Source of the DNA: an uncultured Candidatus Saccharibacteria bacterium
Lineage (GTDB): Bacteria > Patescibacteriota > Minisyncoccia > SW-4-49-11
Direction: 5' to 3'
Assembly (NCBI GenBank): GCA_964585065.1
Contig: CAZPCB010000002.1
Location: 1,006 to 65,005, forward strand
Length of the DNA stretch: 64,000 nucleotides
In this document: piece after piece, positions 4,107-64,000 of the stretch
Numbering within the stretch: position 1 is the stretch's first letter
Layout: each line of letters opens with the position of its first letter
The notes under the pieces: generated by a model
Seen by the model: the letters and a program-made list of their open reading frames with translations, nothing else
The model's database searches: none
Told to the model about the DNA's origin: nothing
Translations under genes and position numbers: made by a program

Positions 4107-5654
4107 ATGAAAGTTAGTAGAAAAATCTTTTTCATAGCCCCAGGGATTATATTGTTATGTGTAGTGATATTAAGTGGGTATATAATAATGAATAGTAATA
4201 CTCAATCAGCTACCTCTCCTAATACACCACCCTACTTAACGGAAGTAAGGGATTATACATTACATAATACTATTTCATTTATAAAACCAATTGATTATAC
4301 AAAATACCAGAATAATCAGGAAGATCTAGATATTGCTATGCAAAAAACCTATCTCGAGGGAGGAATAACTTTTGATGAATTTTTAGAACTGAATAGTATG
4401 GTAAATTTAATAGATAATAATCTTAAAGATATAGAGGCAACTCTATATTACAACTCAGAAACTGTGCTATCTGGAGTTATTTTGAGCTCTAATAAAGAAG
4501 TTTTTTACACAAATGCACGCCAAAAACTACAAGAGTTGAATATTAATTCCCCAGATCTCACCTCTCTCAAAATCACTGAGATATATTTCCGGACCACCTC
4601 TCAAGATTCTAGAGCTTTAGAGTTGGCTTATTTATTCAATATCAACACTGATGTTGAATTTAATAAAAATCTTAAAATAAAACTAGATAATGCTATTAAC
4701 TCTAATAATTACTCCGATTTAGAAAATACAGGGTTAAATATATCTAACCCTTATAATACCGATAATTATGGACTCAAAAGATTAAAAAGGGAGAATGAAG
4801 AAAAGACTAAGAGATTAGCACAAATTGAGTCCTGTATACTTGATTTATATATTCAAGAAGCCGATTTAAAGATTAGATTAAATCAACCTACATGGAGCAC
4901 CAAAAAAGGCCAGTATACAGAAACTATATCTAATCTGAGTAATAAAATTGGATCAATAAACTCACAAGGAGAAAGGACTATAATAGGATGTGAACAATAT
5001 CATTTCCACAATATCCAAATCAGATTCACAAAACCACTCTCTATTAGTGATATTCAGGAGATTGAGAATACCTTACCATTAATTTATCCCAAAAAATATA
5101 TAGCGGAATTAGATCCAGACTATAGGACTAACACTACTAGTACAGAAATAGATATATTAAATGCTCAATTTGATAACTATGAACCTGAAGACTATACTTA
5201 TCGTGATATAGATTTAATAACCACCACATCTACTGAAACTTCACAGTTATTTGCTTTATTTAATCCTGGGAAAAATTGGAAAGATATGAAAAATAATTAT
5301 TATCAAAATCGCACATACTTAAATATCCCTAAAGATAGTGTCGAGAAATATAGAAATGACCAGGATACAATCTATTACTTTACTAACAACCCTCAGTATA
5401 CTAATTTAAGTACTCAGTATATTGATGGTGTTACTCTCTTTACCACAACCCTAGACGATCAATATCTATGCTTACAACAATTATTAACATCAGATAACCA
5501 CTCATCTTGTAGTGTATTCTCTTTAAATCAAAGCCAGAAAAAGCTCTTACAATCCTACATAAAATTGATTGAAATTACCCCTGTAGCACCACATACCCAC
5601 ACAGACTTATATAAATTTGAGGCAAGCCCAACTTCTTCTTTTTGGGTAAAGTAA
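4107..5654 (+). CDS. hypothetical membrane-anchored protein (N/T/Y-rich, low complexity)
   Basis: 515-aa ORF; N-terminal TM (IFFIAPGIILLCVVILSGYII); no recognisable domain. Confidence 0.5.
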   Translation: MKVSRKIFFIAPGIILLCVVILSGYIIMNSNTQSATSPNTPPYLTEVRDYTLHNTISFIKPIDYTKYQNNQEDLDIAMQKTYLEGGITFDEFLELNSMVNLIDNNLKDIEATLYYNSETVLSGVILSSNKEVFYTNARQKLQELNINSPDLTSLKITEIYFRTTSQDSRALELAYLFNINTDVEFNKNLKIKLDNAINSNNYSDLENTGLNISNPYNTDNYGLKRLKRENEEKTKRLAQIESCILDLYIQEADLKIRLNQPTWSTKKGQYTETISNLSNKIGSINSQGERTIIGCEQYHFHNIQIRFTKPLSISDIQEIENTLPLIYPKKYIAELDPDYRTNTTSTEIDILNAQFDNYEPEDYTYRDIDLITTTSTETSQLFALFNPGKNWKDMKNNYYQNRTYLNIPKDSVEKYRNDQDTIYYFTNNPQYTNLSTQYIDGVTLFTTTLDDQYLCLQQLLTSDNHSSCSVFSLNQSQKKLLQSYIKLIEITPVAPHTHTDLYKFEASPTSSFWVK

Positions 5655-5666
5655 TCTCAAGACTAG

Positions 5667-6011
5667 CTACCTCATTAAAAGCCAAATGTCTATTGAGGTA
5701 ATAATTATTGCAGTAATTATGGCAAGTGCGACTATACTAGATCCAATATCTTTAATTCTTTTGATATGAATATTCCACTTAGGTTCCATAAAATCACAAA
5801 TTAACTCTATGGTAGTATTAATCAATTCTAAAATAATAATTGAAATACCAAATAATATCGTTTGCTTTATTAATTCCCAACTTTCCAAAAAAACTTCTAG
5901 TCCAACCAATACCAGAGTAATAATAATTGTTTGTATGATTAGGTTATTATCTCTAGAGAAAGCATATGATAAGCCTTCAACCCATAATTGATATTTTTTA
6001 AGCAGTTTCAT
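5667..6011 (-). CDS. dgkA: diacylglycerol kinase / undecaprenol kinase (DgkA family)
   Basis: 114 aa, 3 TM; motifs ELINTTIE and KDIGSSIVALAIIT match DgkA (E..N.AIE and KD.GSAAV.). Confidence 0.65.
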   Translation of the reverse strand: MKLLKKYQLWVEGLSYAFSRDNNLIIQTIIITLVLVGLEVFLESWELIKQTILFGISIIILELINTTIELICDFMEPKWNIHIKRIKDIGSSIVALAIITAIIITSIDIWLLMR

Positions 6012-6321
6012 AGGGTAGATTATCTTTTACCCTATGAAGCATCCCGACAGCACTATTGATTACATAAAAACCTTGTTTTTCCATAAGTAAAGAAGCTATT
6101 TGAGAGCGTTCACCACTTTTACAGTAGATAATATAGGTTTTCGATGGATCTAATCTTTTTATTTCCTGAACAATATCAGACCTACTAATATCAAAATTTA
6201 CCGCTCCCACTATATGCCCTTGATTAAACTCCTCTAAAGTCCGAACATCAAGTAATATTTCATTCTCTGGTAAATTTTGAGATTTAGATTGAAACTCTTG
6301 GGTTGTAGATATTATATTCAT
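5998..6321 (-). CDS. rhodanese-like sulfurtransferase domain protein
   Basis: 107 aa; active-site loop CKSGERS (Cys-x-S-G-x-R); overlaps dgkA by 14 nt. Confidence 0.75.
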   Translation of the reverse strand: MNIISTTQEFQSKSQNLPENEILLDVRTLEEFNQGHIVGAVNFDISRSDIVQEIKRLDPSKTYIIYCKSGERSQIASLLMEKQGFYVINSAVGMLHRVKDNLPYETA

Positions 6322-6573: not shown

Positions 6574-7302
6574 TCATCTATTTATCCAGGCAAAAATTCT
6601 GTTCAATTCCGATACAATATCCCGATCTAATATTTTTCCATGAGCTATTATAATTCTTTTTGGATTTAAAACTTTAACCCGATCAATTGATTTTTTTAAT
6701 AATTGATGATTACCCCAAAACAATGTTCTCTGGTCTCTCGTTGTGCCTCCATTTGGATGCAAAGCCCCACCTATATATGCTAAAGCTCGGAAAAATGGAT
6801 TGATTTTCTTTGCTTCAAAATTCTCTATAATATCAGTTACAATCCAAGATTTGCTAGGAATATGAAAAAAAGTGTATTCAGTCATAAATCGATTACCAAA
6901 CATAGGTAGAATCTCTAAATCTGGGAAATAATCCCGATCTATGTCTTTTAATTCCCTATCCCATCGTATTGATTGCCCTGCTTGCTGACTTCGCTTTTGA
7001 ACTCCATCACTAGCAAAAGTAATAGCTTCTGGATAGGCTTTTTGAAAATCCTGTATATACCAATAGTGAATTTTATTTGGAGAGATTAAATACTTTACAT
7101 TTCCCAACTCATCTAATTCTTTTTTCAAAGAACTCGTTAAACTAATTGGAGAGTGGATAAAAAGGTCATTATTAGAAAATCTTATTACTACCATTCTCGT
7201 AGTAAATGGCATTCCATAAAAATATATTATAGGACCATCTACAATCCATAGATTTTCACTAATTAATTTTAACGTATGTATTGGTTGATACAAATTATCC
7301 AT
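6574..7302 (-). CDS. conserved hypothetical protein (possibly DUF4336-like/MBL-fold related)
   Basis: 242-aa ORF; the family assignment is memory-based and weak. Confidence 0.5.
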   Translation of the reverse strand: MDNLYQPIHTLKLISENLWIVDGPIIYFYGMPFTTRMVVIRFSNNDLFIHSPISLTSSLKKELDELGNVKYLISPNKIHYWYIQDFQKAYPEAITFASDGVQKRSQQAGQSIRWDRELKDIDRDYFPDLEILPMFGNRFMTEYTFFHIPSKSWIVTDIIENFEAKKINPFFRALAYIGGALHPNGGTTRDQRTLFWGNHQLLKKSIDRVKVLNPKRIIIAHGKILDRDIVSELNRIFAWINR

Positions 7303-7430
7303 ATTATTTTTATGATTCTATTGTAATTATACACATTTATATATATTTTATCTACTTATAAAATTTATCTCCTCTCAAAACCATAGTGAGCCCCCTCTAG
7401 GGTAATGAGTGCTCTCTAACACTCATTTTT

Positions 7431-7460
7431 ATTATTGATTTTGAGAGAGTAGGATGAGAA
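7431..7460. repeat. fragment of the 182-bp unit (ttattgattttgagagagtaggatgagaa, matching 1436-1465)
   Basis: Similarity by eye; lies just left of the GC-rich island. Confidence 0.4.
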
Positions 7461-7541
7461 AAACTTAAGAATAAAGAATCCCCCCACTTAGGTGAGAGGA
7501 TTGTTGGAATTAGAGTTTACTTATCTTTCGTAGAGATTAAC

Positions 7542-8450
7542 TCAGTGATTTGCCTTTGCTAATAAAGCCTGTTTACTAGGAATCCGTAGCTGATAAGCCC
7601 AACCAAGACGCTCCAGAAATCGTATGAAGTAGTAGGTAGGGTCTGGTAGTGTTACTATCTTGTCCCCCCGTACTGTAAAACCCTGTCTTGCTGAATATTC
7701 GAAGCCATGATGTAGATTATGCCAACCCTCGCCAAGAGTGATAATAGCCACCCAAGTGTTGTTACGACTACCATCGCGGGTAATGAATGGCTGATCACCT
7801 ACTAAGTGGGCCACAGAGTTTACCGTAGCAACACCGTGGAACAAAAGAGTAGTGCTCAGACAAAATGCAACCAACCATTCTATACCACCGATATGCCAGG
7901 AGATCCAAGCTAATGCCAAAGCTGGCACTATATGTAGTCTATCGATCAAACGTAATACAGGATCAGACTCTATATCAGCTGGTAGGGTACTAGGATGAAA
8001 TCCAGGTGAAAGTATCCAACCTATCTGAGCATGCCAAAAACCATGCAGTCGATTTCTATACATCAGAGGGCTATGAGGATCATCCAAGGTATCAACATGA
8101 CGATGATGGGCCTTGTGATGAGCCTTCCACCAACTTGGTCCCATCTGGCCTGCTGAGGCTGTTATTATGGATCCGATCCACCATACTAGTCTAGGAGCCT
8201 TATAGCTACCATGAGTTATCAAGCGATGGTAAATGGCAGTAATTCCAAGCATCCGTACTAGGTATAATACTGTAGCCCAGAGTATGGCGCATAAGCCAAG
8301 TCTCTCCCGAAACAACAGTAGACAGCCTAGATGTGCAACCAGTATGAATACCGGTCCCATACCATGCAAAAACCGAAGGAGATGGGATTGGGAAATAGAA
8401 TGGGAAGATACTGCTGTGGAACTGATAGATTTTGAATTAAACATCAGCAT
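7542..8450 (-). CDS. membrane acyl-lipid/acyl-CoA delta-9 fatty acid desaturase (DesC-like)
   Basis: Three His boxes: HRLITH, HHKAHHRH..DPHSP, GEGWHNLHHGFEYSARQG. GC-rich codons. The ORF-track start (8513) is a TTG; the ATG at 8450 is more likely. Confidence 0.8.
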   Translation of the reverse strand: MLMFNSKSISSTAVSSHSISQSHLLRFLHGMGPVFILVAHLGCLLLFRERLGLCAILWATVLYLVRMLGITAIYHRLITHGSYKAPRLVWWIGSIITASAGQMGPSWWKAHHKAHHRHVDTLDDPHSPLMYRNRLHGFWHAQIGWILSPGFHPSTLPADIESDPVLRLIDRLHIVPALALAWISWHIGGIEWLVAFCLSTTLLFHGVATVNSVAHLVGDQPFITRDGSRNNTWVAIITLGEGWHNLHHGFEYSARQGFTVRGDKIVTLPDPTYYFIRFLERLGWAYQLRIPSKQALLAKANH

Positions 8451-8612
8451 ATTCCAGCCCAAACTGGACCATAAGGACATAAACACCTTAGCATACTTAT
8501 TATGTTTAATCAATATACAGAAATATATCTATTCTAGGATATGACACTTCTATCCTTCAAAGAAAAATCCCTCCAGCTGAGCCAAAGGGATTGAGTTAGA
8601 TTGAATTGTAGA

Positions 8613-9314
8613 TCAGATGAGAGCTGAGGCAGCCAGCTTGGCGATTTCACGGGTGGAGAATCCGATAGAGACCAAAGACTCCTGATACGCGATAAGGAAA
8701 TCCTCAATGAGGTCTTCCCTGTCCATTTGGAGGACGGCCGCGTCACCGGCTACCTGATCAAGCATAATGCGTACCAAGGGGAGATTGTCCCGATTGGCCT
8801 GCTCGAGCTCCTCACGACTGGCTTCAAAATTGGCTTTGAGCCATTCTTGGCCATAATTGAGATGAGTGTATTCATCCTTGACTACTCCCTCGGTGATTTT
8901 CCGCGCAAACGGATCGGCAACAGGTATATAGATGTGATAAGCTGCAATTGCAAAGGCCTCGATGAGAATCGCTTGAATCAGCAAACAGGTGACTACCTTC
9001 CTCTCTGTAAAAGCTTTTTGAAAATTGCCATGTAGGGGCAAGAAAAACTTTTTAGCAAAAGGTATATCTGCTTGCACTCCCAAGTTGCGGGCACAGGCAG
9101 TGAAACCCTTCATATGCCTCAGCTCCATACCCGCAAGGCGGGTAAGCTCTTCAGCCTGATCGGGTAGCAAGCTACCAAGGGAAATGTAATTGTCATAAGC
9201 TTCTTGCTCACCTTCAATCACAATGGCATTAATCCTACTATAGGCATCTTTGTAAATGGCGCTGGTGAAGTCAGGAAGAGAGATTTGTTCTTGAGAAAGA
9301 GCAGTTGTGTTCAT
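8613..9314 (-). CDS. aldehyde-deformylating oxygenase (cyanobacterial-type alkane-forming ADO, ferritin-like di-iron)
   Basis: The strings [71 protein letters not shown].. are close to the Synechococcus orf1593 family as recalled. ATG at 9314; the track start at 9338 is a TTG. Confidence 0.8.
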
Positions 9315-9446
9315 AATGGGTATTGGATAAAAATCCAAGAGGTCATTTTTATTATACGCCGCTTATTTTGCTTTGTATATATACACGAAATCATTGACAA
9401 TACCCCCTCAACACCCTATTATATACGTACTTTCTTTCATATCCTC

Positions 9447-9752
9447 ATGAAGCCAATTACAAGGAGTTCCAGAATTTCACTGATTGTGGGAACATTGATT
9501 AGAAAAAGATATCGTTATTATCATATAGAGAAAAAAGAGGCCATATTGCGTGGAGTAATATATGCTATACCTGGTCAAGTTCTTCCTCACTGCAATGGAG
9601 ATTGGACTGAATTAGAGCTGGGTTTATATGAATATTTTAGAACAAAGGGACAGCCTGGATCATTTAATGAGGAAGAGATGCAGACTCTTACTCGAGAGTA
9701 TTTCTCATCATTGCAAGCAACTATAGAATATATCACCCCCAAGGAAGACTAA
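9447..9752 (+). CDS. possible small hypothetical protein in the divergent ADO/CFA-synthase intergenic region
   Basis: ATG-initiated portion (101 aa) of track ORF 9204-9752; the upstream part overlaps ADO and is likely spurious. Confidence 0.15.
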   Translation: MKPITRSSRISLIVGTLIRKRYRYYHIEKKEAILRGVIYAIPGQVLPHCNGDWTELELGLYEYFRTKGQPGSFNEEEMQTLTREYFSSLQATIEYITPKED

Positions 9753-9865: not shown

Positions 9866-11071
9866 ATGGAGCATTTAACCATGTCTGCTCAGACACGTGT
9901 TGAGAGATTTTTTGATAAAGCAGGAGTTGACCAAACCTTTATTACTGCAACTTCTAAGTTTTATAAAGCTTTCGATGGACGGTTCACCCTTGGAATGGGT
10001 GAATCTTATATCAATGGCAGTTTTGCGATTGGTGATGAGAATCTCATCGAAATGTTTACCAGAATTTTTGGAAGCTTAAATGGATTCTTGCGGGGAGATG
10101 ATTATGCTGGGTTTAGCTCACTGGGATTTTATCGGCTGTATCAGCTGATGAATGCCACCCAAATGATCAATTGGCAACACATCCGTGCAAAGTATTTTGC
10201 GGATATTCACTATGAGCTACCTCATCAGCTTTTTGTCCAGATGCTTGGCCCCTCTCGGGCTTATAGCTCTGGTTATTGGCCAGAGGGGGTGGAGACTCTA
10301 GACCAGGCTCAGGATGCCAAGTTTGACTTGATTATCCGCAAGCTTGGTCTCAAAGCCGGTGAAACCGTACTCGACTTCGGTTGTGGGGCGGGTAGTTTTG
10401 GCAGATATGCAGGATCTCGCGGTATTCGAGTCGTAGGACTCAATATCTGCCAGGAACAACTCGCTTATGCTCGAGCTCACAATGACCAAGAAGTTCCTGC
10501 AATTTACCTTGATTTTAATTTGGTAACACAAAGTGTTGCTGAGTTACAATCAATTCTCAAACCCTATGGGATTGAGAATTTCGATGCTGTTACCTTTATT
10601 GGCTCGATTGAGCATGTGGGTTGGAAGAACTATGCTTCTCTCTATCGCAAGCTCTATCAGCTTCTGAATCCTACGGGACGGATTCTCTGCCATGTTATTG
10701 GATCCTATATTCCATTACCGGTGGCCGATCCCTATATCATGACCAAGATTTTCCCTGACTCGCAGCTTGCTGTGATCAGTGAAATGACCAAGGCAACTGA
10801 GAAGACTGGCTTCCAGCTAATGGATTGGCACAACCTGGAAACAGGTGTTCACTCCTATGCCAAGACACTGAGAGCTTGGCTTAACAACTTCCAAACCAAC
10901 TGGGAAACTATCAAGCCCTCTATGCCTCACAAAGATAAGGAAGCCTTTTACCGAGAATGGGTATTCTACCTAATGCTCTGTATTGGAGCCTTCGAGTCTG
11001 ACTTTGTCAATGTTGGGCACTATGTGTTCCGCAAGACTGCAGACACTCACCCATTCACTCCAGTCCGCTAA
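9866..11071 (+). CDS. cyclopropane-fatty-acyl-phospholipid synthase family SAM-dependent methyltransferase
   Basis: 401 aa; SAM motif VLDFGCGAGSF; CMAS-like length and C-terminal region; GC-rich. Confidence 0.7.
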   Translation: MEHLTMSAQTRVERFFDKAGVDQTFITATSKFYKAFDGRFTLGMGESYINGSFAIGDENLIEMFTRIFGSLNGFLRGDDYAGFSSLGFYRLYQLMNATQMINWQHIRAKYFADIHYELPHQLFVQMLGPSRAYSSGYWPEGVETLDQAQDAKFDLIIRKLGLKAGETVLDFGCGAGSFGRYAGSRGIRVVGLNICQEQLAYARAHNDQEVPAIYLDFNLVTQSVAELQSILKPYGIENFDAVTFIGSIEHVGWKNYASLYRKLYQLLNPTGRILCHVIGSYIPLPVADPYIMTKIFPDSQLAVISEMTKATEKTGFQLMDWHNLETGVHSYAKTLRAWLNNFQTNWETIKPSMPHKDKEAFYREWVFYLMLCIGAFESDFVNVGHYVFRKTADTHPFTPVR

Positions 11072-11086
11072 GCCCTGAATACTCAC

Positions 11087-11113
11087 CGAGGGAAGCCCAG
11101 CTTCCCTCTTTTT
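11087..11113 (+). terminator. rho-independent terminator (gagggaagc-cca-gcttccctc + T6)
   Basis: Hairpin plus T-run directly after the CFA-synthase-like stop. Confidence 0.6.
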
Positions 11114-11184
11114 TATTACTCTTGTTATTTTCCTAATAATATACTATGATAAAGCGGTTGTGAAACTAATAATATACTAAATAT

Positions 11185-11544
11185 ATGAAGAATTTAGGTA
11201 TAGAGATTGTTGGAGATTTAAAAGGTATTGATAAAGAATTTTTAACCCATATTAATAGTGATGAAATTCAGGCTGAGATTTCTCGGCTTATCTCTCATTA
11301 TGGATTTCATGAGCTTGGAAACTATTATCATTCTTTTGAGCCAGGACTCACAGCTGCTGTCGCTCTTGCCGAATCTCATGTAACCTTTCATACTTGGCCT
11401 GAATTTGGGTATGTAAGTTTGAATGTTTTTACCTGTAATTATACCAAAGATAATGATGATAATGCCAAAGCTTTATTTGATGATATCGCCTCCCTATTCC
11501 GAGCAGAGAATATAGATAAACAAATCATTTTACGTAATCATTAG
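11185..11544 (+). CDS. speH: S-adenosylmethionine decarboxylase proenzyme (small bacterial/archaeal SpeH type)
   Basis: 119 aa; ESHVTFHTWPEFGYVSLNVFTC matches the AdoMetDC processing-site region (ESH.S.HTWPE). Confidence 0.7.
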   Translation: MKNLGIEIVGDLKGIDKEFLTHINSDEIQAEISRLISHYGFHELGNYYHSFEPGLTAAVALAESHVTFHTWPEFGYVSLNVFTCNYTKDNDDNAKALFDDIASLFRAENIDKQIILRNH

Positions 11545-11550
11545 AAATAA

Positions 11551-11580
11551 AAAAGCCCCCGACAAATGCTGGGGGCTGAG
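11551..11580. terminator. bidirectional terminator hairpin (gccccc-N10-gggggc) between convergent speH and the 11598-11864 ORF
   Basis: aaaagcccccgacaaatgctgggggct. Confidence 0.55.
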
Positions 11581-11597
11581 TGGAAGGGCAAAAGCCC

Positions 11598-11864
11598 TTA
11601 TTTGTGTACCTGTGAAGGCATTGGAGGGTTGGGGTCGGTCGGATCCACACCCAACAGCGCCGGCACAGTTAGGGCTGCAAGGCCCACAACCAAAAGACCT
11701 AGCAACACCTTCTTGAAGGGTGAGCGACGATCCTGACGTGGACGAGGGGGCAGAGGGGGATCGAGCACAACTCGATCCCCTTTGAAGTTACCCCCTTTGA
11801 GAAAAGCAGGAAGCTGAGGTTCCACTTGGCCAACATTGAGAAAGGCGGGGAGTTCAGGTGCCAT
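11598..11864 (-). CDS. hypothetical Pro-rich protein with a C-terminal hydrophobic segment; GC-rich
   Basis: 88 aa, ATG start; composition (~58% GC) is foreign relative to its flanks. Confidence 0.3.
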   Translation of the reverse strand: MAPELPAFLNVGQVEPQLPAFLKGGNFKGDRVVLDPPLPPRPRQDRRSPFKKVLLGLLVVGLAALTVPALLGVDPTDPNPPMPSQVHK

Positions 11865-11986: not shown

Positions 11987-13138
11987 ATGAATATATTATC
12001 CTCTTTTCGCTATATTAAATCACTATTCTTTCCCCGTATAAGCCCATTGATTACGGTACATATTGATGAGGCAGCTTTATTACATAATTTGAGAGAGTAT
12101 AGACAAGCCTATCCCGATATACAATTTGCGCCTGTACTCAAAAGCAATGCTTATGGACATGGGCTTATTCCTATTGCTCATATATTGGACTCCCCCAATA
12201 TCCCCTTCCTGATTGTAGACTCTTATTATGAGGCTTTAACCCTGCGGCAAAACGCTATCAAATCCCCCATTCTCATTATTGGGTATATTTTGCCTGAAAT
12301 TATCAAAAAATCTCGCCTCAAAAATGTATATTTTACCGTGACAAGTTTGGCGCAATTACAAGGAATTAATGATAGTATTCGGCGTCCTATCTCTATACAT
12401 CTCAAAATCGATACTGGTATGCATAGGCAGGGTTTATTACCGACTGAAATTCATCAAGCTATTACTATTATTAAAAAGAATTCTTCACTACAATTACAAG
12501 GTATATGCTCTCATCTTGCTGATGCGGATAATAAGATAAGTACATATAATCAAGCTCAATTAGATCAATGGGAACAAAGTATTCCGTTTTTTAAAACCGC
12601 CTTTCCTAATCTCAAGTATTATCATATATCAGCAAGCGCTGGGCTTATACATACCGATAAGTCTCATCATAATCTTGCTCGATTAGGTTTGGGATTATAT
12701 GGAATTAGTATTATTGAGAATAATAAACTTTCCCTGAAGCCCGTTATCTCACTTACTTCTATCATTAGTGGGATAAAAGTTATCAAAAAAGGTGATACCG
12801 TTGGATATAATAATACCTTTATTGCCAAAAATGATATGTTAATCGCGACTATACCCGCTGGTTATGCTGAGGGAGTCGATCGTAGATTATCTAATATTGG
12901 GCAAGTGGAGATAGCGGAAATATTATGCCCAATCATTGGGCGAGTAAGTATGAATATTACTACTATTGATATTACTCATATGCCGAATATTCAAATTGGA
13001 GATATTGTGACTCTTATCAGCAATGATCATTCCTCCCCTATTTCTGTTAGTGCTATTGCTAAAATGTGCGATACTATTCCTTATGAAATTCTGATACATA
13101 TTCCTGGATATTTGCGCCGAGAGATCAAAAAAGCATAA
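11987..13138 (+). CDS. alr: alanine racemase
   Basis: 383 aa; PLP-lysine motif AVLKSNAYGHG. Confidence 0.85.
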   Translation: MNILSSFRYIKSLFFPRISPLITVHIDEAALLHNLREYRQAYPDIQFAPVLKSNAYGHGLIPIAHILDSPNIPFLIVDSYYEALTLRQNAIKSPILIIGYILPEIIKKSRLKNVYFTVTSLAQLQGINDSIRRPISIHLKIDTGMHRQGLLPTEIHQAITIIKKNSSLQLQGICSHLADADNKISTYNQAQLDQWEQSIPFFKTAFPNLKYYHISASAGLIHTDKSHHNLARLGLGLYGISIIENNKLSLKPVISLTSIISGIKVIKKGDTVGYNNTFIAKNDMLIATIPAGYAEGVDRRLSNIGQVEIAEILCPIIGRVSMNITTIDITHMPNIQIGDIVTLISNDHSSPISVSAIAKMCDTIPYEILIHIPGYLRREIKKA

Positions 13139-21115: not shown

Positions 21116-22771
21116 CTAACTTCTATCAATAAATTCTTCTCTTGAGCTGGCATCTGGTTTTGTAATAGTATTAGGGATAAGAGCTGATAATAATGGTTCA
21201 CTTTCAGCCCCTATACGTGCTAGTTCATAGGCTAAATAGCGATAATTAATATGTCCTCCTGGTCGCACTCGAAGTTGTGTCATATAGCTGATTTCTTTTG
21301 GAGAGGCATGAAAAATACTGATAAAAATATGTCCAAAGGGTAATAATTGCGTCCAGAGATATTGAGGAAACCATGTATATTCACGAGTAAGTGCAACAAA
21401 GTCCTGCAATTTGACATAATACCCTTGTAAATCCTTCTCAAATTCCTCGCGAATAGAGGTGAATACAGGGTTATCAGTGAGATATAATGGTAAGGTATAG
21501 CCATTATATAATGATGCCTCATAATTCTCAGTGCTAAGAGTTGGAATATATCGTCCCCATGCACGATGACGATTCAAATCTCTAAGCTCGGAATTAGAGC
21601 TCATCAGTACAAAGCTATGAGTATTTACCCGAAACAAATTACCCATTTGCTTATGATGATTAAAGTCTTTGAATAGTATTTGAGATATAGTTTTTTCCTG
21701 CTCTTCTGTGAGTGTTTCAGTCCAATCTAGTACTGATTTAACACTTGCATTTGGATATAGGGTAAGAATATTCTGAAAGAGAATTTTAATCCCTGCACTT
21801 AAATTAATATCTAATAATTCAACATTGAGATTATGATAGCCAATAGTTTCTGATATCTCTAAATATTGCTCTATTTTTAATTCCTCATTAAGATATGTTT
21901 TAAGTTCACTAAGATTATTGCGTGTAATGGTATCTGCCTGAGTATGACGAATTAAATCAGGAGCTTCTGCAGTATAGTTAATTTCCTTTGCATAGGCTTC
22001 ATCTGGCGCAAATAATACTTCTAATTGCTCAGCTAAATATACTAATTCTTGTTCTGCAGAGGCTTTAAACACAGAGATTAATCGAGCCCATTCCCGAGCT
22101 GAGGTAATATAGGCAAGAGAAGTTTTATTCATAAGCCCTGAGGGGAGAAAATATCGGGTAGAGTCAAATACCCGAGCTGTAAGAGCTCCCGTCTCTGATT
22201 TATTATTCTCATCAATACCATAGCCTTTAATATAGGTACTGGTTAATTCAGCCTGCCAATATTTATATTTATCAAGAGCATATTGTTGTAAATCTAAGAG
22301 AGATTCATTCACCTTATCATAATTCTCTGCATCAGAATTAATACCGAGACTATTGAGTCCAAGTGGTTTACTATTCCCAAAATCTTGATATCGAGTTGAG
22401 CGCTGTTGCCCACCTCCTACACTGGTTTCATTAAAGAAAATTGTAGAATAATGATCGGGAATTTGCTCAATATAGGCAAATAGTTGAGCCATATCAGCTA
22501 CTGAAGAATGGCCATAATTACGAAATATATTGGCTAATTTTTCATTGGCATTACTTCCTGCAGCTTGAATTTCTTGGAATAATTCCTCTGCAGATAATGC
22601 TGAGCGAGAAAATCTTGCTCCAGCAAAAGCCATAATAGAGGCTGTTTGCTTACCCGCATTCGGAAGAGCGGTTCTGACAGTGTATCCTGTGCGAGTATCA
22701 GTCACTGAGACAATAACTAAATCGGTTTTATCTGGGTCTGAGACCGTGAATGTAAAATGCTCATATGCCAT
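21116..22771 (-). CDS. large conserved hypothetical protein (weak ThyX-like RHR..RY motif; unassigned)
   Basis: About 551 aa from the ATG at 22771; the RHRAWGRY segment is reminiscent of flavin-dependent thymidylate synthase but not diagnostic; immediately downstream of dcd. Confidence 0.5.
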   Translation of the reverse strand: MAYEHFTFTVSDPDKTDLVIVSVTDTRTGYTVRTALPNAGKQTASIMAFAGARFSRSALSAEELFQEIQAAGSNANEKLANIFRNYGHSSVADMAQLFAYIEQIPDHYSTIFFNETSVGGGQQRSTRYQDFGNSKPLGLNSLGINSDAENYDKVNESLLDLQQYALDKYKYWQAELTSTYIKGYGIDENNKSETGALTARVFDSTRYFLPSGLMNKTSLAYITSAREWARLISVFKASAEQELVYLAEQLEVLFAPDEAYAKEINYTAEAPDLIRHTQADTITRNNLSELKTYLNEELKIEQYLEISETIGYHNLNVELLDINLSAGIKILFQNILTLYPNASVKSVLDWTETLTEEQEKTISQILFKDFNHHKQMGNLFRVNTHSFVLMSSNSELRDLNRHRAWGRYIPTLSTENYEASLYNGYTLPLYLTDNPVFTSIREEFEKDLQGYYVKLQDFVALTREYTWFPQYLWTQLLPFGHIFISIFHASPKEISYMTQLRVRPGGHINYRYLAYELARIGAESEPLLSALIPNTITKPDASSREEFIDRS

Positions 22772-22772
22772 A

Positions 22773-23351
22773 TTATTCTTCTTTATTTTCAAAATTTTTA
22801 TGCATATCACTTGCTTGTACTCCTCTTGAGTCATAATATTTACTTCCTAGAGAGGCTGATCCATAAGAATTTTGGGCAGGAGTTTTGAGTTCATAAAAAG
22901 CAATTTGGGCTATTTTCATTTCTGGATAAAGCCGAATTGGTACGGTATTAGTATTTACAAATTCAAGGGTGGCATTGAGTTTATTCCCAGGATCAATAAA
23001 TCCAGCTGTGGTATGTACAATTAATCCGTATCGAGCTAGAGAGCTTTTTCCCATAATTTGACAGGCATATTTTTCATTGCATCCAAAATAATCTTTGGTT
23101 ACACCCAATACAAATTGACCTGGATGTATTACAAAATATTCATCCTTATCGGTTAATATAACTTTTTCCATAAATTCATGAACTGATTGCTTGGGGTCAA
23201 TATATTCAAATTTGTGACTATTAAAAATCATAAATTCATATCCGAGTAAAACATCATAACTAGCCGGCTGAAGACGAGCCTCATCAAAATCATTAATGAT
23301 AATATCTCCTAATTCGATTCCCTTCTTTATATCGACATCGGATAATTGCAT
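22773..23351 (-). CDS. dcd: dCTP deaminase
   Basis: 192 aa; N-terminal MQLSD..I..G..ARLQPASYDVLLG typical of Dcd. Confidence 0.8.
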   Translation of the reverse strand: MQLSDVDIKKGIELGDIIINDFDEARLQPASYDVLLGYEFMIFNSHKFEYIDPKQSVHEFMEKVILTDKDEYFVIHPGQFVLGVTKDYFGCNEKYACQIMGKSSLARYGLIVHTTAGFIDPGNKLNATLEFVNTNTVPIRLYPEMKIAQIAFYELKTPAQNSYGSASLGSKYYDSRGVQASDMHKNFENKEE

Positions 23352-43929: not shown

Positions 43930-45822
43930 TTGACGATATTCTTTAGAATTGTTAATCTAACATATATACATCAAAAAAAATATACTATGTTTAGATCACG
44001 CAAATCTCTGTTTATCTTTTTAGGATTTGCTATTATATTAAGTTTTGCTATAGGATACAGTATTCCAAATAATTTTATTCAATCACCACAAATAAATCCT
44101 TCAGATACCATTCCCACAGAATCTTTTTCTGAGCAAAATCTTCATTATTCCTATCTTAATGATAAAAACTATTTTGAAGAAGCCTTTCAAAATTTACCTC
44201 AACCGACAAATTCCAAGAGTGAGGATATAAAAGGTCTTATTATACCTCATCATCTGGTCGCAAAAAAACTTATTGCTAATGCCTTTAATCAAGTTACATC
44301 TGATAAACCTCTTACAGTATTTCTTATTAGTCCTAATCACTTTAATACTGGTCGAGGGCAAATCATCACATCTCAATATGACTGGAGTACTCCCTATGGT
44401 ATTATTGAGCCCAATACTCAAATAATTGATAAGCTGATTGAAATTAATACTACTATAAAAATAGATGAATCTCCATTTACTAATGAACATGGAATATCAA
44501 ATGAAGTTTCTTTTATCAAAAAAACTCTTCCTCAGGCTCAAATTGTCCCCCTTATTATTAAAGATACAATATCACAGAATCAAATTAATACTTTTGTTGA
44601 TAATTTAACTCAAAATCTTCCAGAAAATTATCTTTTCGTTGCTTCCCTAGACTTTTGTCATAATAAAGGAGTTACCATATGTAATCAAAATGATAAAAAA
44701 AGTCTTTCTATTCTCTCCAAATTTGACTATAAAGACACTAAAAGTGTTGATGTAGACTCTCCAGCAGGATTACAAATACTATTACAAAGTCTCAATAAAC
44801 TTGGCTATTCTCAATTTAATCTTCTAGAAAATACTAATTCTGTAAATATTATAGGAGAAGCACCTAATGATGAAATGGTCAGTTATATTACAGGATATAT
44901 CACCAAAAAATCTGAGAGCAAAAAAGTAGATATATTATCTTTTGGGGATATGATGCTTGATAGATATATGCGTAATGCCATTAATTCTAGAGGTTTTGAT
45001 GCTATTTTTGAGAATATGAGAAGTATTATTAAGGATAAAAATATTATTTTAGTTAATTTAGAAGGAAGTTTCACCTCCTTTACCCCAAAACCCCTTAATC
45101 CTAATAATGTACAATTTACTTTTGACCCTGCCATTGTACCTAAATTAAAAGACTTGGGATTTACTCATTTTGGACTTGCTAATAATCATTCTCTTGATTT
45201 TGGATTGGCTGGGCTTAATCAAAACAAAGATTTTCTCAGTAAATCAGGTATAGACTATTTTGGAGAACCCAATAATAAAGATGCTATTTCCTTTATTCAA
45301 TCAGTTAATGATATGAATATTGGACTTATTGGATATCATGAATTTAATAATCCTGATACCAGTTCTGTAATACAAGAAATCAAATCTCTCAAGGATAAAA
45401 CTGATTTTATTATAGTATATCCACATTGGGGTATTGAATATCAAACTCAATTCTCTAGAGGGCAGCAAGTTAAGGCTTATCAATTTATTGATGCGGGGGC
45501 AGATGCCGTAATTGGAGCTCATCCACATGTTATACAACCAATAGAAATATATCAAAATAAACCTATATTCTACTCCTTAGGAAATTTTATATTTGACCAA
45601 ACATTTTCAAAAAACACCCAACAAGGATTAGCTCTTAATATTACCCTACAAGATAATAGTGCTACTTATACACTAATCCCTCTTGAGTCTCGTAACTTAA
45701 TTCCTTATATTGCAGAGGATAATTCTCGTAAAACAACACTCTCAAATCTTGCTGAGAATTCATCTGTTTCAGAAGATATAAAATCTCAGTTAGAATTGGG
45801 GATAATTAATTTGAATCGATAA
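43930..45822 (+). CDS. fusion protein: N-terminal Memo-like (AmmeMemoRadiSam system protein B-type) domain + C-terminal CapA/PgsA metallophosphatase-fold domain
   Basis: The N-terminal half has IIPHH...FLISPNH...TNEHGISNEVSFI (Memo/LigB-like). The C-terminal half has FGDMMLDR..NLE..LANNHSLDFG..IVYPHWGIEY..GADAVIGAHPHVIQPIE..YSLGNFIF, the canonical CapA pattern. Confidence 0.6.
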   Translation: MTIFFRIVNLTYIHQKKYTMFRSRKSLFIFLGFAIILSFAIGYSIPNNFIQSPQINPSDTIPTESFSEQNLHYSYLNDKNYFEEAFQNLPQPTNSKSEDIKGLIIPHHLVAKKLIANAFNQVTSDKPLTVFLISPNHFNTGRGQIITSQYDWSTPYGIIEPNTQIIDKLIEINTTIKIDESPFTNEHGISNEVSFIKKTLPQAQIVPLIIKDTISQNQINTFVDNLTQNLPENYLFVASLDFCHNKGVTICNQNDKKSLSILSKFDYKDTKSVDVDSPAGLQILLQSLNKLGYSQFNLLENTNSVNIIGEAPNDEMVSYITGYITKKSESKKVDILSFGDMMLDRYMRNAINSRGFDAIFENMRSIIKDKNIILVNLEGSFTSFTPKPLNPNNVQFTFDPAIVPKLKDLGFTHFGLANNHSLDFGLAGLNQNKDFLSKSGIDYFGEPNNKDAISFIQSVNDMNIGLIGYHEFNNPDTSSVIQEIKSLKDKTDFIIVYPHWGIEYQTQFSRGQQVKAYQFIDAGADAVIGAHPHVIQPIEIYQNKPIFYSLGNFIFDQTFSKNTQQGLALNITLQDNSATYTLIPLESRNLIPYIAEDNSRKTTLSNLAENSSVSEDIKSQLELGIINLNR

Positions 45823-55774: not shown

Positions 55775-55997
55775 TGCAATCGTCTAAATTGATGATGTTG
55801 ATAATCTGTGGATAAGTTGATTTTATTATACGCTATTGCAGGATTTTTGCAAAGATATCCCCATTAAAGATTGAGTATAAGCTATAATTCACTTTGAATT
55901 CACTTTCAAAAATAACCCTCCCTCAACAATACGGTATTATATCTTGACTTTCTCTTAATAATAAGCTATAATATGCAACAAGTCTATCGTTATATAT
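55775..55997. promoter_or_regulatory. dnaA/rpmH divergent region: one perfect DnaA box and a consensus sigma70 promoter for rpmH
   Basis: TGTGGATAA at 55807-55815; TTGACT at 55944-55949, 17-bp spacer, TATAAT at 55967-55972. Confidence 0.55.
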
Positions 55998-56132
55998 ATG
56001 ATCAAAGGAGCAGCAAGTAAGAATCGTAAAAGAAATCGCCGACATGGTTTTTTGTCTCGTATGGCAACAAAGTCGGGACGAGCTTTAATTAATCGACGCC
56101 GAGCAAGAGGACGAGCAAAATTATCCGTCTAA
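55998..56132 (+). CDS. rpmH: 50S ribosomal protein L34
   Basis: 44 aa, [44 protein letters not shown]; below the ORF-track cutoff, found by eye. Confidence 0.85.
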
Positions 56133-56154
56133 TTTACTTTATATAAAAAACACA

Positions 56155-56475
56155 ATGGAGCGGCTGCATGAATCATCAGATATAGCCTCTATATTTGCTG
56201 AGATTAAGCCTCAATATCTTGATATATTTCAGATATATACTCGCCCGAGTGACAAAGATATTACTCGATTGGGTATTATTATTTCAAAAAAACATATACC
56301 ACTTGCTGTCAACCGCAATAGATTCAAAAGACAAGTCCGAGAATTATTTCGCAAGCAAATTGATACAAAAACTAGACATTATGATATACTTGTACTAGTG
56401 CGCAATCGTCCAAAACAAGAGAACAAAACTCAAGTATTTGAGCAATTAACTCAATATATTAATACCTTAATCTAA
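56155..56475 (+). CDS. rnpA: ribonuclease P protein component
   Basis: RLGIIISKKHIPLAVNRNRFKRQVRELFR (RnpA RNR motif); classic rpmH-rnpA-yidC synteny. Confidence 0.8.
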   Translation: MERLHESSDIASIFAEIKPQYLDIFQIYTRPSDKDITRLGIIISKKHIPLAVNRNRFKRQVRELFRKQIDTKTRHYDILVLVRNRPKQENKTQVFEQLTQYINTLI

Positions 56476-63834: not shown

Positions 63835-64000
63835 ATTGAAATAATTAATTATGTTCATATAGTATAGCATAATTATAGAATAGAAAACACTTACATATAG
63901 CACAATTCTGGACAAAAGAGTATAATGAATCTATATAATCTGAATATATGATAGGATATTGGATATTAATAGCTAGCGTTATCACAGGGCAAATTACCCG

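What the first reader, a model, noticed from the sequence alone, without database searches (positions are those of the whole stretch)
8613..9314. Orphan aldehyde-deformylating oxygenase without its acyl-ACP reductase partner
In cyanobacteria ADO is almost invariably adjacent to acyl-ACP reductase (AAR), which supplies the fatty aldehyde. Here ADO is instead co-directional with a delta-9 desaturase and divergent from a CFA-synthase-like methyltransferase, and no AAR-like reductase is in the window. Either aldehyde comes from another source, or the gene has been repurposed. Its flanks (a desaturase that introduces a double bond, and a CFA-synthase-like enzyme that methylates or cyclopropanates one) suggest a module acting on the same acyl chain.
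Basis: partly seen in the sequence, partly recalled or inferred. Interest (0 to 1): 0.6.

Follow-up and report, generated by a model that had tools for sequence, protein, structure and literature searches.

The report
Cyanobacterial alkane enzyme in ultra-small bacterium
The alkane-forming enzyme ADO, described in the literature as unique to cyanobacteria, sits here intact and without its usual partner in the genome of a tiny non-photosynthetic Patescibacteria/CPR bacterium that took it, and a lipid desaturase, from freshwater picocyanobacteria, which may be its hosts.

Summary
Window 8613-9314(-) encodes a full-length ADO with all six di-iron ligands. A Δ9-type desaturase lies downstream, a CFA-synthase-like methyltransferase lies divergent from it, and no AAR is in the window.

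The premise is wrong: this is not a cyanobacterial genome. The background is 30-37% GC with dnaA, dnaN, dnaE and uvrB. Its UvrB is about 90% identical to proteins NCBI names Parcubacteria/Paceibacterota (Patescibacteria/CPR).

ADO and the desaturase form a 44-50% GC island. Their nearest relatives are Cyanobium-type picocyanobacteria (86% and about 70% identity), where AAR always directly follows ADO.

Syntenic relatives lack the island, or carry ADO alone. The methyltransferase plus AdoMet-decarboxylase pair is native and older, so the "three-gene module" is not supported.

A second CPR clade holds a separately derived solitary ADO at another locus. Its third-position GC lies between donor and host, and long-term dN/dS is about 0.07, which argues for a real, selected gene rather than a chimera.

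Best reading: a captured, stand-alone ADO (plus a DesC-like desaturase) that tailors scavenged lipids. The aldehyde source and the electron donor are unknown. No paper linking ADO with CPR was found.

The parts
8613..9314 (-). Aldehyde-deformylating oxygenase (ADO), 233 aa. Xenolog from Cyanobium-type picocyanobacteria.
   Evidence: PF11266 389.8 bits. TIGR04059 equivalog 395.6 bits against a 222.65 cut-off. Gapless alignment to PDB 2OC5. Ligands E36, E64, H67, E119, E148, H151 intact. GC 0.476 and GC3 0.50 against host GC3 0.22-0.29. Nearest relative L005, 86% identity.
7542..8480 (-). Δ9-type (DesC-like) membrane fatty-acid desaturase, 312 aa. A second picocyanobacterial xenolog, acquired later than ADO.
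   Evidence: PF00487. His boxes at residues 85, 122 and 254 plus hydrophobic segments. 96% identical to the sister CPR genome, then about 70% to proteins named acyl-CoA desaturase of Vulcanococcus, Cyanobium or Synechococcus. Absent next to ADO in L098. GC 0.45.
7400..9400 (.). Foreign-composition segment (44-50% GC) holding the desaturase and ADO, inside a 30-37% GC chromosome.
   Evidence: Composition profiles. Missing from the syntenic site in L084-L088. No flanking repeats, integrase or tRNA.
9351..9379 (-). Promoter-like site upstream of ADO (TATACA-17-TATAAT). It favours the ATG at 9314 as the start codon.
   Evidence: Consensus scan, 10/12 matches. A consensus match only.
8566..8592 (-). 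Terminator-like hairpin directly after the ADO stop codon.
   Evidence: 12-bp stem followed by a T-run.
8531..8560 (-). Promoter-like site between ADO and the desaturase.
   Evidence: Consensus scan, 9/12 matches. Weak.
7477..7502 (-). Terminator-like hairpin after the desaturase.
   Evidence: 11-bp stem.
9447..9752 (+). orf101, a small ORF of unknown function with host-like composition. Fasciclin and sortase genes occupy this position in relatives.
   Evidence: Called as a gene in independent assemblies L089 and L090. No Pfam or NCBIfam hit. GC3 0.29. Replaced by fasciclin and sortase genes in L091, L097 and L098.
9866..11071 (+). CFA-synthase-like (CMAS family) two-domain methyltransferase. 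A native neighbour that predates the insertion; not part of the island.
   Evidence: PF02353 179.8 bits. Aligns to both domains of E. coli CFAS 6BQC. Below NCBIfam equivalog cut-offs (221.7 against 400). Conserved at the same locus in relatives lacking ADO and the desaturase.
11185..11544 (+). Small AdoMet decarboxylase-like gene, a constant partner of the methyltransferase.
   Evidence: PF02675 69.6 bits. Follows the methyltransferase in every relative examined. 98% identical to L091, dN/dS 0.02.
6574..7302 (-). DUF4336 gene, native composition. It marks the left border of the island.
   Evidence: PF14234. GC3 0.22. Present elsewhere in the L085 and L086 contigs.

Best explanation
Shown:
- The window is a chromosome segment of a low-GC Parcubacteria/Paceibacteria-type Patescibacterium (CPR).
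- A plasticity zone between its rhodanese gene and a native CFA-synthase-like/AdoMet_dc pair received an ADO gene from a Cyanobium-type picocyanobacterium.
- Later, only in the window-plus-L091 lineage, a DesC-like Δ9 desaturase of the same donor group was added next to it.
- AAR, which directly follows ADO in the donors, was not retained.
- ADO is catalytically intact, partly shifted to host composition, has its own AT-rich promoter-like and terminator-like signals, and is under purifying selection.
- A second CPR clade carries a separately derived solitary ADO at another locus.

Inferred mechanism:
- The enzyme still carries out the canonical reaction: long-chain fatty aldehyde + O2 + 4 e- gives a Cn-1 alkane or alkene plus formate at the di-iron site.
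- It works as a stand-alone enzyme on aldehydes that the cell does not make through AAR/acyl-ACP.
- The most likely aldehyde source is material scavenged from, or derived from lipids of, a picocyanobacterial partner.
- Electrons would come from a generic host ferredoxin- or flavodoxin-type donor.
- Together with the desaturase (and possibly the native methyltransferase), ADO gives a cell that probably cannot build its own fatty acids a way to adjust membrane fluidity and packing in cold, oxic lake water.

Rough confidence by layer: HGT-derived, selected, AAR-less ADO in a CPR genome about 0.9; canonical aldehyde-to-alkane chemistry about 0.6; partner-derived aldehyde and a membrane role about 0.35.
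For: Identity of ADO:
- establish the family match.
- One search shows the six ligands and 105/106 invariant columns kept in the window. L091, L037, L047 and L098 deviate at only 1-3 invariant columns.
- One search shows the AAR/ferredoxin-face acidic residues (Np E197, E201, D202) kept as in the respective donor clades.

Host:
- dnaA, dnaN, dnaE, uvrB, prfB, ftsEX and yidC are present.
- UvrB is 99% identical to that of the L091 contig and about 90% identical to proteins named Candidatus Parcubacteria or Paceibacterota.
- NCBI names a homologous ADO 'aldehyde oxygenase (deformylating) [Minisyncoccia bacterium]'.

Foreign origin:
- ADO GC is 0.48 against flanks of 0.34.
- GC3 is 0.50, against a donor mean of 0.79 and host 0.22-0.29.
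- The nearest ADOs are all picocyanobacterial, with AAR starting within about 160 bp (47-184) downstream in 73/78 loci.
- The nearest named desaturases are Vulcanococcus, Cyanobium and Synechococcus.

Insertion history:
- Syntenic relatives lack the island (L084-L088).
- Some have ADO only (L098; ADO fragment in L097).
- One has ADO plus the desaturase (L091).

Not an artefact:
- The same junctions appear in independent assemblies: L001-L003, L089, L090, and for the sister genome L091, L092 and a JGI contig.

Independent acquisitions:
- CPR ADOs are never monophyletic in 200 NJ bootstraps, while window+L091 group in 100%.
- The loci differ: beside the methyltransferase here, beside an SNase-Excalibur nuclease in the other clade.
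- The helix-7 signature differs: I-E against M-A.

Selection:
- Window against L098: dN 0.108, dS 1.63, ω 0.07. Window against L091: ω 0.19-0.31.

No AAR:
- None in the window or in any low-GC locus, about 250 kb in total.

Chemistry and physiology background:
- Δado cyanobacteria are impaired mainly at low temperature, and their hydrocarbons are proposed to tune membrane fluidity.
Against: - No aldehyde-forming enzyme and no ferredoxin- or rubredoxin-type motif was found in the window or in any fetched CPR locus. Neither substrate supply nor electron supply is demonstrated.
- Only 64 kb of a contig of about 234 kb was visible, so an AAR or another reductase elsewhere is not excluded.
- ADO is the fastest-evolving protein of the neighbourhood between the two sister genomes (dN 0.08, ω 0.31 full length). 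That could mean relaxed constraint or a functional shift.
- A physical association with picocyanobacteria is inferred only from donor identity.
- The tree is neighbour-joining on 212 columns. Window+L091+L098 are not recovered as a clade without L005 (4%; with L005 36%), so the number of events at the window locus is uncertain.
- Host taxonomy rests on names that depositors gave to homologues, not on a marker-gene phylogeny.
Confidence: 0.55

Rival explanations
1. One reading: a cyanobacterial genome in which ADO has been separated from AAR, and AAR sits elsewhere in the same genome.
For: ADO is 76-86% identical to picocyanobacterial ADOs. The rest of the genome could not be inspected.
Against: The background is 30-37% GC with GC3 0.22-0.29, against 0.53-0.74 for every cyanobacterial locus. 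UvrB's named relatives are Parcubacteria/Paceibacterota at about 90%, with no cyanobacterial names among the top 120. No photosynthesis or other cyanobacterial genes appear in the 64 kb. Syntenic relatives lack ADO.
Confidence: 0.02
2. Assembly or binning chimera: a picocyanobacterial fragment wrongly joined into a CPR contig.
For: Cyanobium and this CPR lineage appear to co-occur, to judge from the lake and reservoir isolate names of donor-clade MAGs. There is an abrupt GC step at about 7.4 kb.
Against: The same junctions occur in at least 5 independently assembled contigs from different runs, and in a sister species from NCBI, JGI and Logan. ADO GC3 of 0.50 is below the range of the 78 cyanobacterial ADOs (0.55-0.96, mean 0.79). 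No cyanobacterial sequence is closer than 86%. AAR, which starts 47-184 bp downstream in donors, is missing and a host-like terminator and AT-rich spacer follow instead.
Confidence: 0.02
3. Complete alkane pathway after all: the CPR genome encodes AAR or another fatty-aldehyde-forming reductase (FAR/ACR, CAR) at a distant locus, so ADO makes alkanes from endogenous or salvaged acyl thioesters.
For: Only part of the genome was seen. Generic reductases exist in relatives, e.g. NAD_binding_10 genes near the locus in L084 and L085. ADO keeps the acidic AAR-docking residues.
Against: AAR is absent from all low-GC loci, about 250 kb. In at least two independent captures from donors where AAR lies 47-184 bp downstream, AAR was not kept beside ADO. 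The docking face also binds ferredoxin, so its conservation is uninformative. By general knowledge, not tested here, CPR bacteria usually lack fatty-acid synthesis and ACP.
Confidence: 0.15
4. Repurposed ADO: kept for aldehyde detoxification (lipid-peroxidation or partner-derived aldehydes), for oxygen consumption, or for a shifted substrate, with alkane being irrelevant.
For: There is no cis aldehyde supply. The lineage carries oxidative-stress genes nearby (AhpC in L091; MsrA/B in L084 and L085). dN between sister genomes is elevated. By recalled literature, ADO accepts C4-C18 aldehydes and can yield alcohols and n-1 aldehydes.
Against: 105/106 invariant columns are kept, and no changes at ligands or at the conserved channel-lining helices were detected. 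Long-term ω of 0.07 is like that of cyanobacterial ADOs, 0.02-0.08. By recalled literature, ADO turnover is very slow, which makes it a poor detoxifier or oxygen sink.
Confidence: 0.2
5. Functionless passenger: recently acquired DNA drifting towards loss.
For: It lies in a hypervariable zone whose content differs between close relatives. ω of 0.31 between sister genomes is the highest bar the short rhodanese and orf515 genes, whose dS is only about 0.02-0.03.
Against: ORFs are intact in every lineage seen. The gene is retained across divergence where dS exceeds 1.6, with ω 0.07. Composition is partly shifted to host values, implying long residence. Two or more independent captures of the same gene have been kept.
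Confidence: 0.05

Closest known systems
Cyanobacterial AAR/ADO (FAAR/ADO) alkane pathway (Schirmer et al. 2010, recalled; Coates et al. 2014, PMC3903477; Arai review, PMC9743570)
   Same: The protein is an ADO by every sequence criterion: equivalog-level HMM score, gapless alignment to solved ADOs, and di-iron ligands present. It nests within picocyanobacterial ADOs.
   Different: There is no AAR next to it or anywhere in the DNA examined, whereas AAR follows ADO in 73/78 donor loci. The host is a non-photosynthetic CPR bacterium, although ADO is described as 'unique to cyanobacteria'. There are no thylakoids, the membrane for which hydrocarbons are thought to matter.
Picocyanobacterial DesC-type Δ9 acyl-lipid/acyl-CoA desaturases
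   Same: About 70% identity to Vulcanococcus, Cyanobium and Synechococcus enzymes. Three His boxes and membrane segments.
   Different: Encoded in a CPR genome directly downstream of ADO. In none of 78 picocyanobacterial loci does a homologue lie within 10 kb of ADO. It carries an N-terminal Ser-rich extension.
E. coli cyclopropane fatty acid synthase (PDB 6BQC) and the mycolic-acid CMAS family
   Same: The window's methyltransferase aligns over both the N-terminal and catalytic domains of 6BQC and matches PF02353.
   Different: Only 133.9 bits to 6BQC and below all NCBIfam equivalog cut-offs. It belongs to a tight CPR-specific family (32 proteins at 59-100% identity, the next best at 36%) that is always paired with a small AdoMet decarboxylase. 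It is native and not co-acquired with ADO.
Host-to-episymbiont gene capture in Patescibacteria (e.g. PMC12455944, title and abstract only; Saccharibacteria-Actinobacteria cases, recalled) and cyanophage capture of host lipid desaturases (recalled, not verified here)
   Same: A reduced-genome dependent organism holds metabolic genes whose nearest relatives belong to one specific donor group. Composition is intermediate between donor and recipient.
   Different: The donor group (picocyanobacteria) has not, to my knowledge, been reported as a CPR host. The captured gene is half of a two-enzyme pathway. No ADO was found in IMG/VR, GenBank phages or PLSDB plasmids, so no vector is evident.

Membership tests
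Aldehyde-deformylating oxygenase (TIGR04059 / PF11266) | Sequence scores above the curated family thresholds over the full length | tested here: met
   TIGR04059 equivalog 395.6 bits against 222.65. PF11266 389.8 bits against 28, model positions 1-218 of 218.
Aldehyde-deformylating oxygenase (TIGR04059 / PF11266) | Two E-x(n)-E-x-x-H motifs supplying the six di-iron ligands (S. elongatus E32, E60, H63, E115, E144, H147; numbering recalled) | tested here: met
   Window E36, E64, H67, E119, E148, H151. The same holds in L091, L037 and L047 and in all 78 cyanobacterial sequences. Motif regex.
Aldehyde-deformylating oxygenase (TIGR04059 / PF11266) | Same fold and length as solved ADOs | tested here: met
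   Gapless alignment of residues 12-233 to 2OC5 residues 22-243. No structure prediction was run because identity is high (>70%, read by eye from the alignment; not computed).
Aldehyde-deformylating oxygenase (TIGR04059 / PF11266) | Converts Cn fatty aldehyde to Cn-1 alk(a/e)ne plus formate with O2 and a reducing system | not testable with these tools
   Needs enzyme assay or GC-MS of expressing cells.
Cyanobacterial FAAR/ADO alkane pathway (two-gene system) | AAR encoded with ADO (adjacent in picocyanobacteria) | tested here: not met
   AAR follows ADO in 73/78 donor loci. There is none in the window, or in L037, L047, L084-L100 or L104-L107. The rest of the genome was not visible.
Cyanobacterial FAAR/ADO alkane pathway (two-gene system) | Cyanobacterial host | tested here: not met
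   Low-GC genome. UvrB relatives are named Parcubacteria/Paceibacterota. A homologous ADO is named Minisyncoccia.
Membrane Δ9 fatty-acid desaturase (PF00487, DesC-like) | Pfam match, three histidine boxes and membrane-spanning segments | tested here: met
   PF00487 67.5 bits. HRLITH at 85, HKAHH at 122, HNLHH at 254, plus hydrophobic stretches.
Membrane Δ9 fatty-acid desaturase (PF00487, DesC-like) | Δ9 regiospecificity on acyl-lipid or acyl-CoA | not testable with these tools
   Only names that sources gave to homologues are available ('stearoyl-CoA Δ9 desaturase', 'acyl-CoA desaturase').
Cyclopropane fatty acid synthase | Equivalog-level similarity to characterised CFA synthases | tested here: not met
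   NF008686 221.7 bits against a 400 cut-off; the other CFA models are also below cut-off.
Cyclopropane fatty acid synthase | Two-domain architecture and catalytic or bicarbonate-site residues | tested here: inconclusive
   Aligns to both domains of 6BQC. The E...H...Y positions appear conserved in the printed alignment, while the Cys of 'SCAYW' is Ser here. Residue roles are recalled and were not verified.
Horizontally acquired genomic island | Deviant composition, nesting inside a foreign clade, and absence from the syntenic site of relatives | tested here: met
   (composition). (phylogeny). (synteny).
Horizontally acquired genomic island | Mobility hallmarks: integrase or transposase, flanking direct repeats, tRNA target | tested here: not met
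   None in 5.5-12.5 kb. The only tRNA is at 279-353.
Patescibacteria (CPR; NCBI Minisyncoccota) host genome | Vertically inherited markers group with the phylum | tested here: inconclusive
   UvrB's nearest named homologues are Parcubacteria/Paceibacterota (about 90%) and Saccharimonadales (56%). No rRNA or ribosomal-protein phylogeny was possible from the window.

The most novel reading that the evidence does not exclude
Freshwater Parcubacteria-type CPR bacteria have captured the cyanobacteria-specific alkane enzyme ADO from Cyanobium-type picocyanobacteria at least twice, and a DesC desaturase once. They keep ADO under purifying selection without AAR. If so, these ultra-small bacteria live attached to, or feed on, picocyanobacteria. 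They would use ADO on partner-derived aldehydes or lipids to make hydrocarbons for their own membrane. That would be the first ADO-based hydrocarbon capacity outside cyanobacteria, and a genetic pointer to a previously unrecognised CPR-picocyanobacterium association.
Probability: 0.35. Interest if true: 0.85.

Novelty: new variant of a known kind. Interest (0 to 1): 0.68.

Why it matters
**Taxonomic range.** ADO is described in the literature as a cyanobacterial signature enzyme (PMC3903477), and hydrocarbon production as strictly conserved in cyanobacteria (PMC8661006). Finding it intact, selected and repeatedly captured in CPR genomes breaks that restriction.

**A natural test of ADO without AAR.** These genomes are a natural experiment on what ADO is good for without AAR and without thylakoids.

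**A lead on CPR hosts.** Hosts of environmental Parcubacteria are almost entirely unknown. Two or more independent gene captures from one donor group give a concrete hypothesis, picocyanobacteria as partners, testable by FISH, co-sorting or proximity ligation.

**A caution for surveys.** ADO hits in metagenomes cannot be assumed to be cyanobacterial.

Tried and rejected
1. **Donor-side linkage.** I looked for the desaturase, methyltransferase and orf101 within ±10 kb of ADO in 78 picocyanobacterial loci and found none. The genes were not transferred as a block from one donor locus.

2. **Phage or plasmid vector.** There is no ADO in IMG/VR, GenBank phages or PLSDB plasmids. The desaturase has only a 32% hit in an Acinetobacter phage.

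3. **Mobile-element signatures.** Repeats and tRNA scans around the island gave only short chance-level repeats. The two AATCC...GGATT hairpins are not a dispersed repeat: 4 matches against 2.2 expected.

4. **Decay of the AAR-docking face.** The test was uninformative. E197 and D202 are invariant, and E201 is E or A already among donors that have AAR.

5. **Ferredoxin or rubredoxin motifs.** None in the window or in CPR loci. This is not conclusive for the genome.

6. **Literature.** No paper in the library links ADO or aldehyde decarbonylase with Patescibacteria, CPR or Parcubacteria. The Phycocordibacter paper mentions neither alkanes nor desaturases.

7. **The window's own NCBI record.** Only Logan copies could be fetched. 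A 234,058-bp NCBI contig carrying the same proteins is indicated.

8. **Single origin at the window locus.** NJ bootstraps give poor support for a clade of window+L091+L098 (4% alone, 36% with L005). A single insertion is suggested by the shared locus and the shared upstream reading 'LDFYP', but it is not proven.
Full report
**1. The observation**

The ORF at 8613-9314(-) is an aldehyde-deformylating oxygenase (ADO).
- It covers Pfam PF11266 end to end (389.8 bits).
- It passes the NCBIfam equivalog TIGR04059 (395.6 bits, cut-off 222.65).
- It aligns without a gap to the Prochlorococcus ADO structure 2OC5.

Downstream on the same strand lies a 312-aa membrane desaturase at 7542-8480. It matches PF00487 and has His boxes at residues 85, 122 and 254. 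Upstream and divergent lie a 101-aa ORF and a CMAS/CFA-synthase-like methyltransferase at 9866-11071 (PF02353), followed by a small AdoMet decarboxylase.

tblastn with the AAR of Synechococcus WH7803 finds nothing in the window.

**2. The genome is not cyanobacterial**

- The window averages 34% GC (30-37% in most 2-kb windows), but 7.4-9.4 kb is 44-50% GC.
- The rest of the window carries ordinary bacterial housekeeping genes: dnaA, dnaN, rnpA, yidC, dnaE, uvrB, prfB, ftsEX, ssb, rpsF and ychF. There is nothing photosynthetic.
- UvrB is 99% identical to a protein on a sister contig and about 90% identical to proteins that NCBI names Candidatus Parcubacteria or Paceibacterota. The best Saccharimonadales hit is 56%.
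- A homologous low-GC ADO is deposited as 'aldehyde oxygenase (deformylating) [Minisyncoccia bacterium]'. Minisyncoccia belongs to Minisyncoccota, i.e. Patescibacteria/CPR.
- The taxonomic call rests on depositors' names for close homologues. No rRNA or ribosomal-protein tree was possible.

**3. Where ADO and the desaturase came from**

A scan of one genome per GTDB species returned 80 loci.
- 78 are picocyanobacteria of 53-74% GC (several mislabelled MAGs included). Their ADOs are 75-85% identical to the window's over the tblastn match; the nearest, L005, is 86% over the 212 trimmed columns.
- In 73 of these, AAR starts within about 160 bp (47-184) downstream of ADO. The other five contigs end just after ADO.
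- The remaining two loci, L037 (Minisyncoccia MAG) and L047 (MAG labelled Saccharibacteria), are 34% GC contigs with a solitary 47-53% GC ADO and no AAR.

The window's desaturase is 96% identical to one in a sister CPR genome. The next best hits, at about 70%, are proteins named acyl-CoA desaturase of Vulcanococcus, Cyanobium and Synechococcus.

Third-position GC tells the same story. Cyanobacterial ADOs average 0.79. The window has 0.50, L037 0.47, L047 0.63 and L098 0.57. Host genes have 0.22-0.29. The genes are foreign but have been resident long enough to drift part of the way towards host composition.

**4. History of the locus**

The methyltransferase has a tight family: 32 proteins at 59-100% identity, then a drop to 36%. 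Fetching their contigs gave a series of syntenic genomes.

| Loci | Content between rhodanese and the methyltransferase |
|---|---|
| L084-L088 | Nothing; rhodanese directly faces methyltransferase-AdoMet_dc-Ala racemase |
| L098, and the contig end of L097 | ADO, then fasciclin and sortase; no desaturase |
| L091 (GCA_044341565.1, sister genome) | DUF4336, desaturase, ADO, fasciclin, sortase |
| Window | Same as L091, but orf101 replaces fasciclin and sortase |

Three conclusions follow.
- (a) The methyltransferase/AdoMet_dc pair is native and older than the insertion.
- (b) ADO came first and the desaturase was added later.
- (c) The interval is a plasticity zone.

No integrase, tRNA or flanking repeat marks the island. 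ADO and the desaturase each have a promoter-like site and a terminator-like hairpin of their own.

**5. Not an artefact, and not a one-off**

The same junctions appear in contigs assembled independently from several sequencing runs (L001-L003, L089, L090). They also appear in the sister species from three sources.

A codon-biased DNA pattern search of JGI/ENA metagenomes gave seven hits. Three were cyanobacterial; both that extend past ADO carry an adjacent AAR. Four were low-GC contigs without AAR.

In that second group (L037, L047/L099/L100, L105, L106), ADO always lies tail-to-tail with a secreted SNase-Excalibur nuclease. The window's homologue of that nuclease, at 48399-49610, has no ADO beside it.

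In 200 NJ bootstraps the window and L091 ADOs group in 100%, and all CPR ADOs together never group. The two groups also carry different donor-clade signatures on helix 7, I-E against M-A. At least two independent captures are therefore likely. Whether L037 and L047, or the window and L098, each represent one event is unresolved.

**6. Is the enzyme functional?**

- All six di-iron ligands are present in every CPR copy aligned for this check (window, L091, L037, L047).
- The window differs at 1 of 106 columns that are invariant in cyanobacterial ADOs (K66R, a residue that S. elongatus also has).
- The acidic residues that dock AAR and lie in the region that also binds ferredoxin (PMC9743570) are as in the donors.
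- Between the window and L098, dN is 0.108 and dS 1.63 (ω 0.07). That is comparable with cyanobacterial pairs, 0.02-0.08.
- Between the two sister genomes ω is 0.19-0.31, and ADO has the highest dN of the neighbourhood. This points to somewhat relaxed or shifting constraint recently, but still purifying selection.

**7. How it probably works**

Shown: an intact ADO and an intact Δ9-type desaturase, each with its own promoter- and terminator-like signals, in a CPR genome without a cis AAR.

Inferred:
- ADO performs its usual O2- and electron-dependent deformylation of long-chain aldehydes to Cn-1 hydrocarbons and formate (mechanism reviewed in PMC9743570).
- AAR, 47-184 bp away in the donors, was not kept beside ADO at either insertion locus, i.e. 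after at least two independent captures. By general knowledge, not tested here, CPR bacteria usually cannot make acyl-ACP. AAR would then be useless to them, and the aldehyde must come from elsewhere.
- The most economical source is the organism that also supplied the genes. This lineage repeatedly took up picocyanobacterial DNA, which fits physical association or feeding on picocyanobacteria.
- In cyanobacteria, loss of ADO impairs growth mainly at low temperature, and hydrocarbons are proposed to tune local membrane fluidity (PMC8661006).
- A cell that must live on scavenged lipids in cold, oxic lake water would gain from a desaturase and a hydrocarbon-forming enzyme. The native CFA-synthase-like enzyme could further modify the double bonds.

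Neither an aldehyde source nor a ferredoxin was found in the DNA available. This part remains hypothesis.

**8. Rivals**

- A cyanobacterial host, or a chimeric assembly, is contradicted by composition, synteny and independent assemblies.
- A distant AAR or other reductase cannot be excluded without the whole genome (about 0.15).
- A repurposed role in aldehyde detoxification or oxygen handling is possible (about 0.2).
- A decaying passenger gene is unlikely given the selection data.

**9. Comparison with what is known, and novelty**

The protein is a member of the ADO family, with all testable sequence features met. The system is not the cyanobacterial AAR/ADO pathway, because AAR adjacency and a cyanobacterial host both fail.

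Coates et al. state that the ADO step 'is unique to cyanobacteria'. Full-text searches found no paper that links ADO with Patescibacteria, CPR or Parcubacteria. No phage or plasmid copy was found. NCBI's pipeline has already labelled such genes in Minisyncoccia MAGs, so the sequences are public but apparently undiscussed.

I rate this a new variant of a known kind: a known enzyme in a new, partner-less, non-photosynthetic setting, with a clear evolutionary signal.

**10. Verdict**

Interest 0.68.

Noticed in passing
window 60384-61952 (-): A single 522-aa ORF fuses a LexA DNA-binding domain, an S24 self-cleaving peptidase and a C5 cytosine DNA methyltransferase. This is an unusual architecture: an SOS-type repressor joined to a methylase.
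   Followed up: no
window 9866-11864; L084-L088, L091, L097, L098: The CFA-synthase-like methyltransferase, a 119-aa AdoMet decarboxylase and a small Pro-rich/TM ORF on the opposite strand (GC 0.52) form a conserved trio in all relatives, whether or not ADO is present. The methyltransferase family is tight and CPR-specific (next homologue 36%) and is itself GC-enriched (0.40-0.45 against 0.33-0.35), hinting at an older acquisition.
   Followed up: partly
L037 1711-3453; L047 9962-11761; L105 1289-2839; L099, L100, L106: In a second CPR clade ADO is always tail-to-tail with a secreted SNase-Excalibur nuclease. It lies near TraC/TraG-like ATPases and a type III restriction-modification system. 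The nuclease may relate to DNA scavenging or uptake.
   Followed up: partly
window 48399-49610 (-) and 63511-63915 (-): Homologues of the two genes that flank ADO in L047 (the SNase-Excalibur nuclease, 52-60% identical; and a small TM protein, judged similar by eye from the translations, with no tblastn hit at E<=1e-8) are present in the window but far from ADO. This shows the two ADO insertions are at different loci.
   Followed up: yes
window 43930-45822 (+): A fusion of a Memo-like domain with a PGA_cap (capsule synthesis, metallophosphatase-like) domain in one 630-aa protein.
   Followed up: no
window ~55775-56155: dnaA and dnaN on the minus strand diverge from rnpA and yidC on the plus strand. 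This is a probable replication origin region.
   Followed up: no
window 21116-23351 (-): A 572-aa protein with only a weak ThyX (Thy1) match sits next to a dCTP deaminase-like gene. This is an unusually long ThyX-like protein.
   Followed up: no
L005, L009, L024, L035, L043, L066 (GTDB genome contigs): Several high-GC contigs that carry ADO-AAR (L043's contig ends just after ADO) belong to MAGs labelled Acidovorax, Chitinophaga, Mesorhizobium or Klebsiella in their record titles. By composition and gene content they are picocyanobacterial, so the organism names appear wrong.
   Followed up: partly
window 4107-6321 versus 8613-9314 and 11987-13138; compared with L091: Divergence between the two sister genomes is mosaic. 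dS is 0.02-0.03 for orf515 and rhodanese, but 0.26 for ADO and 0.45 for Ala racemase and AdoMet_dc, while UvrB is 99% identical. This suggests recombination within the population around this locus.
   Followed up: no
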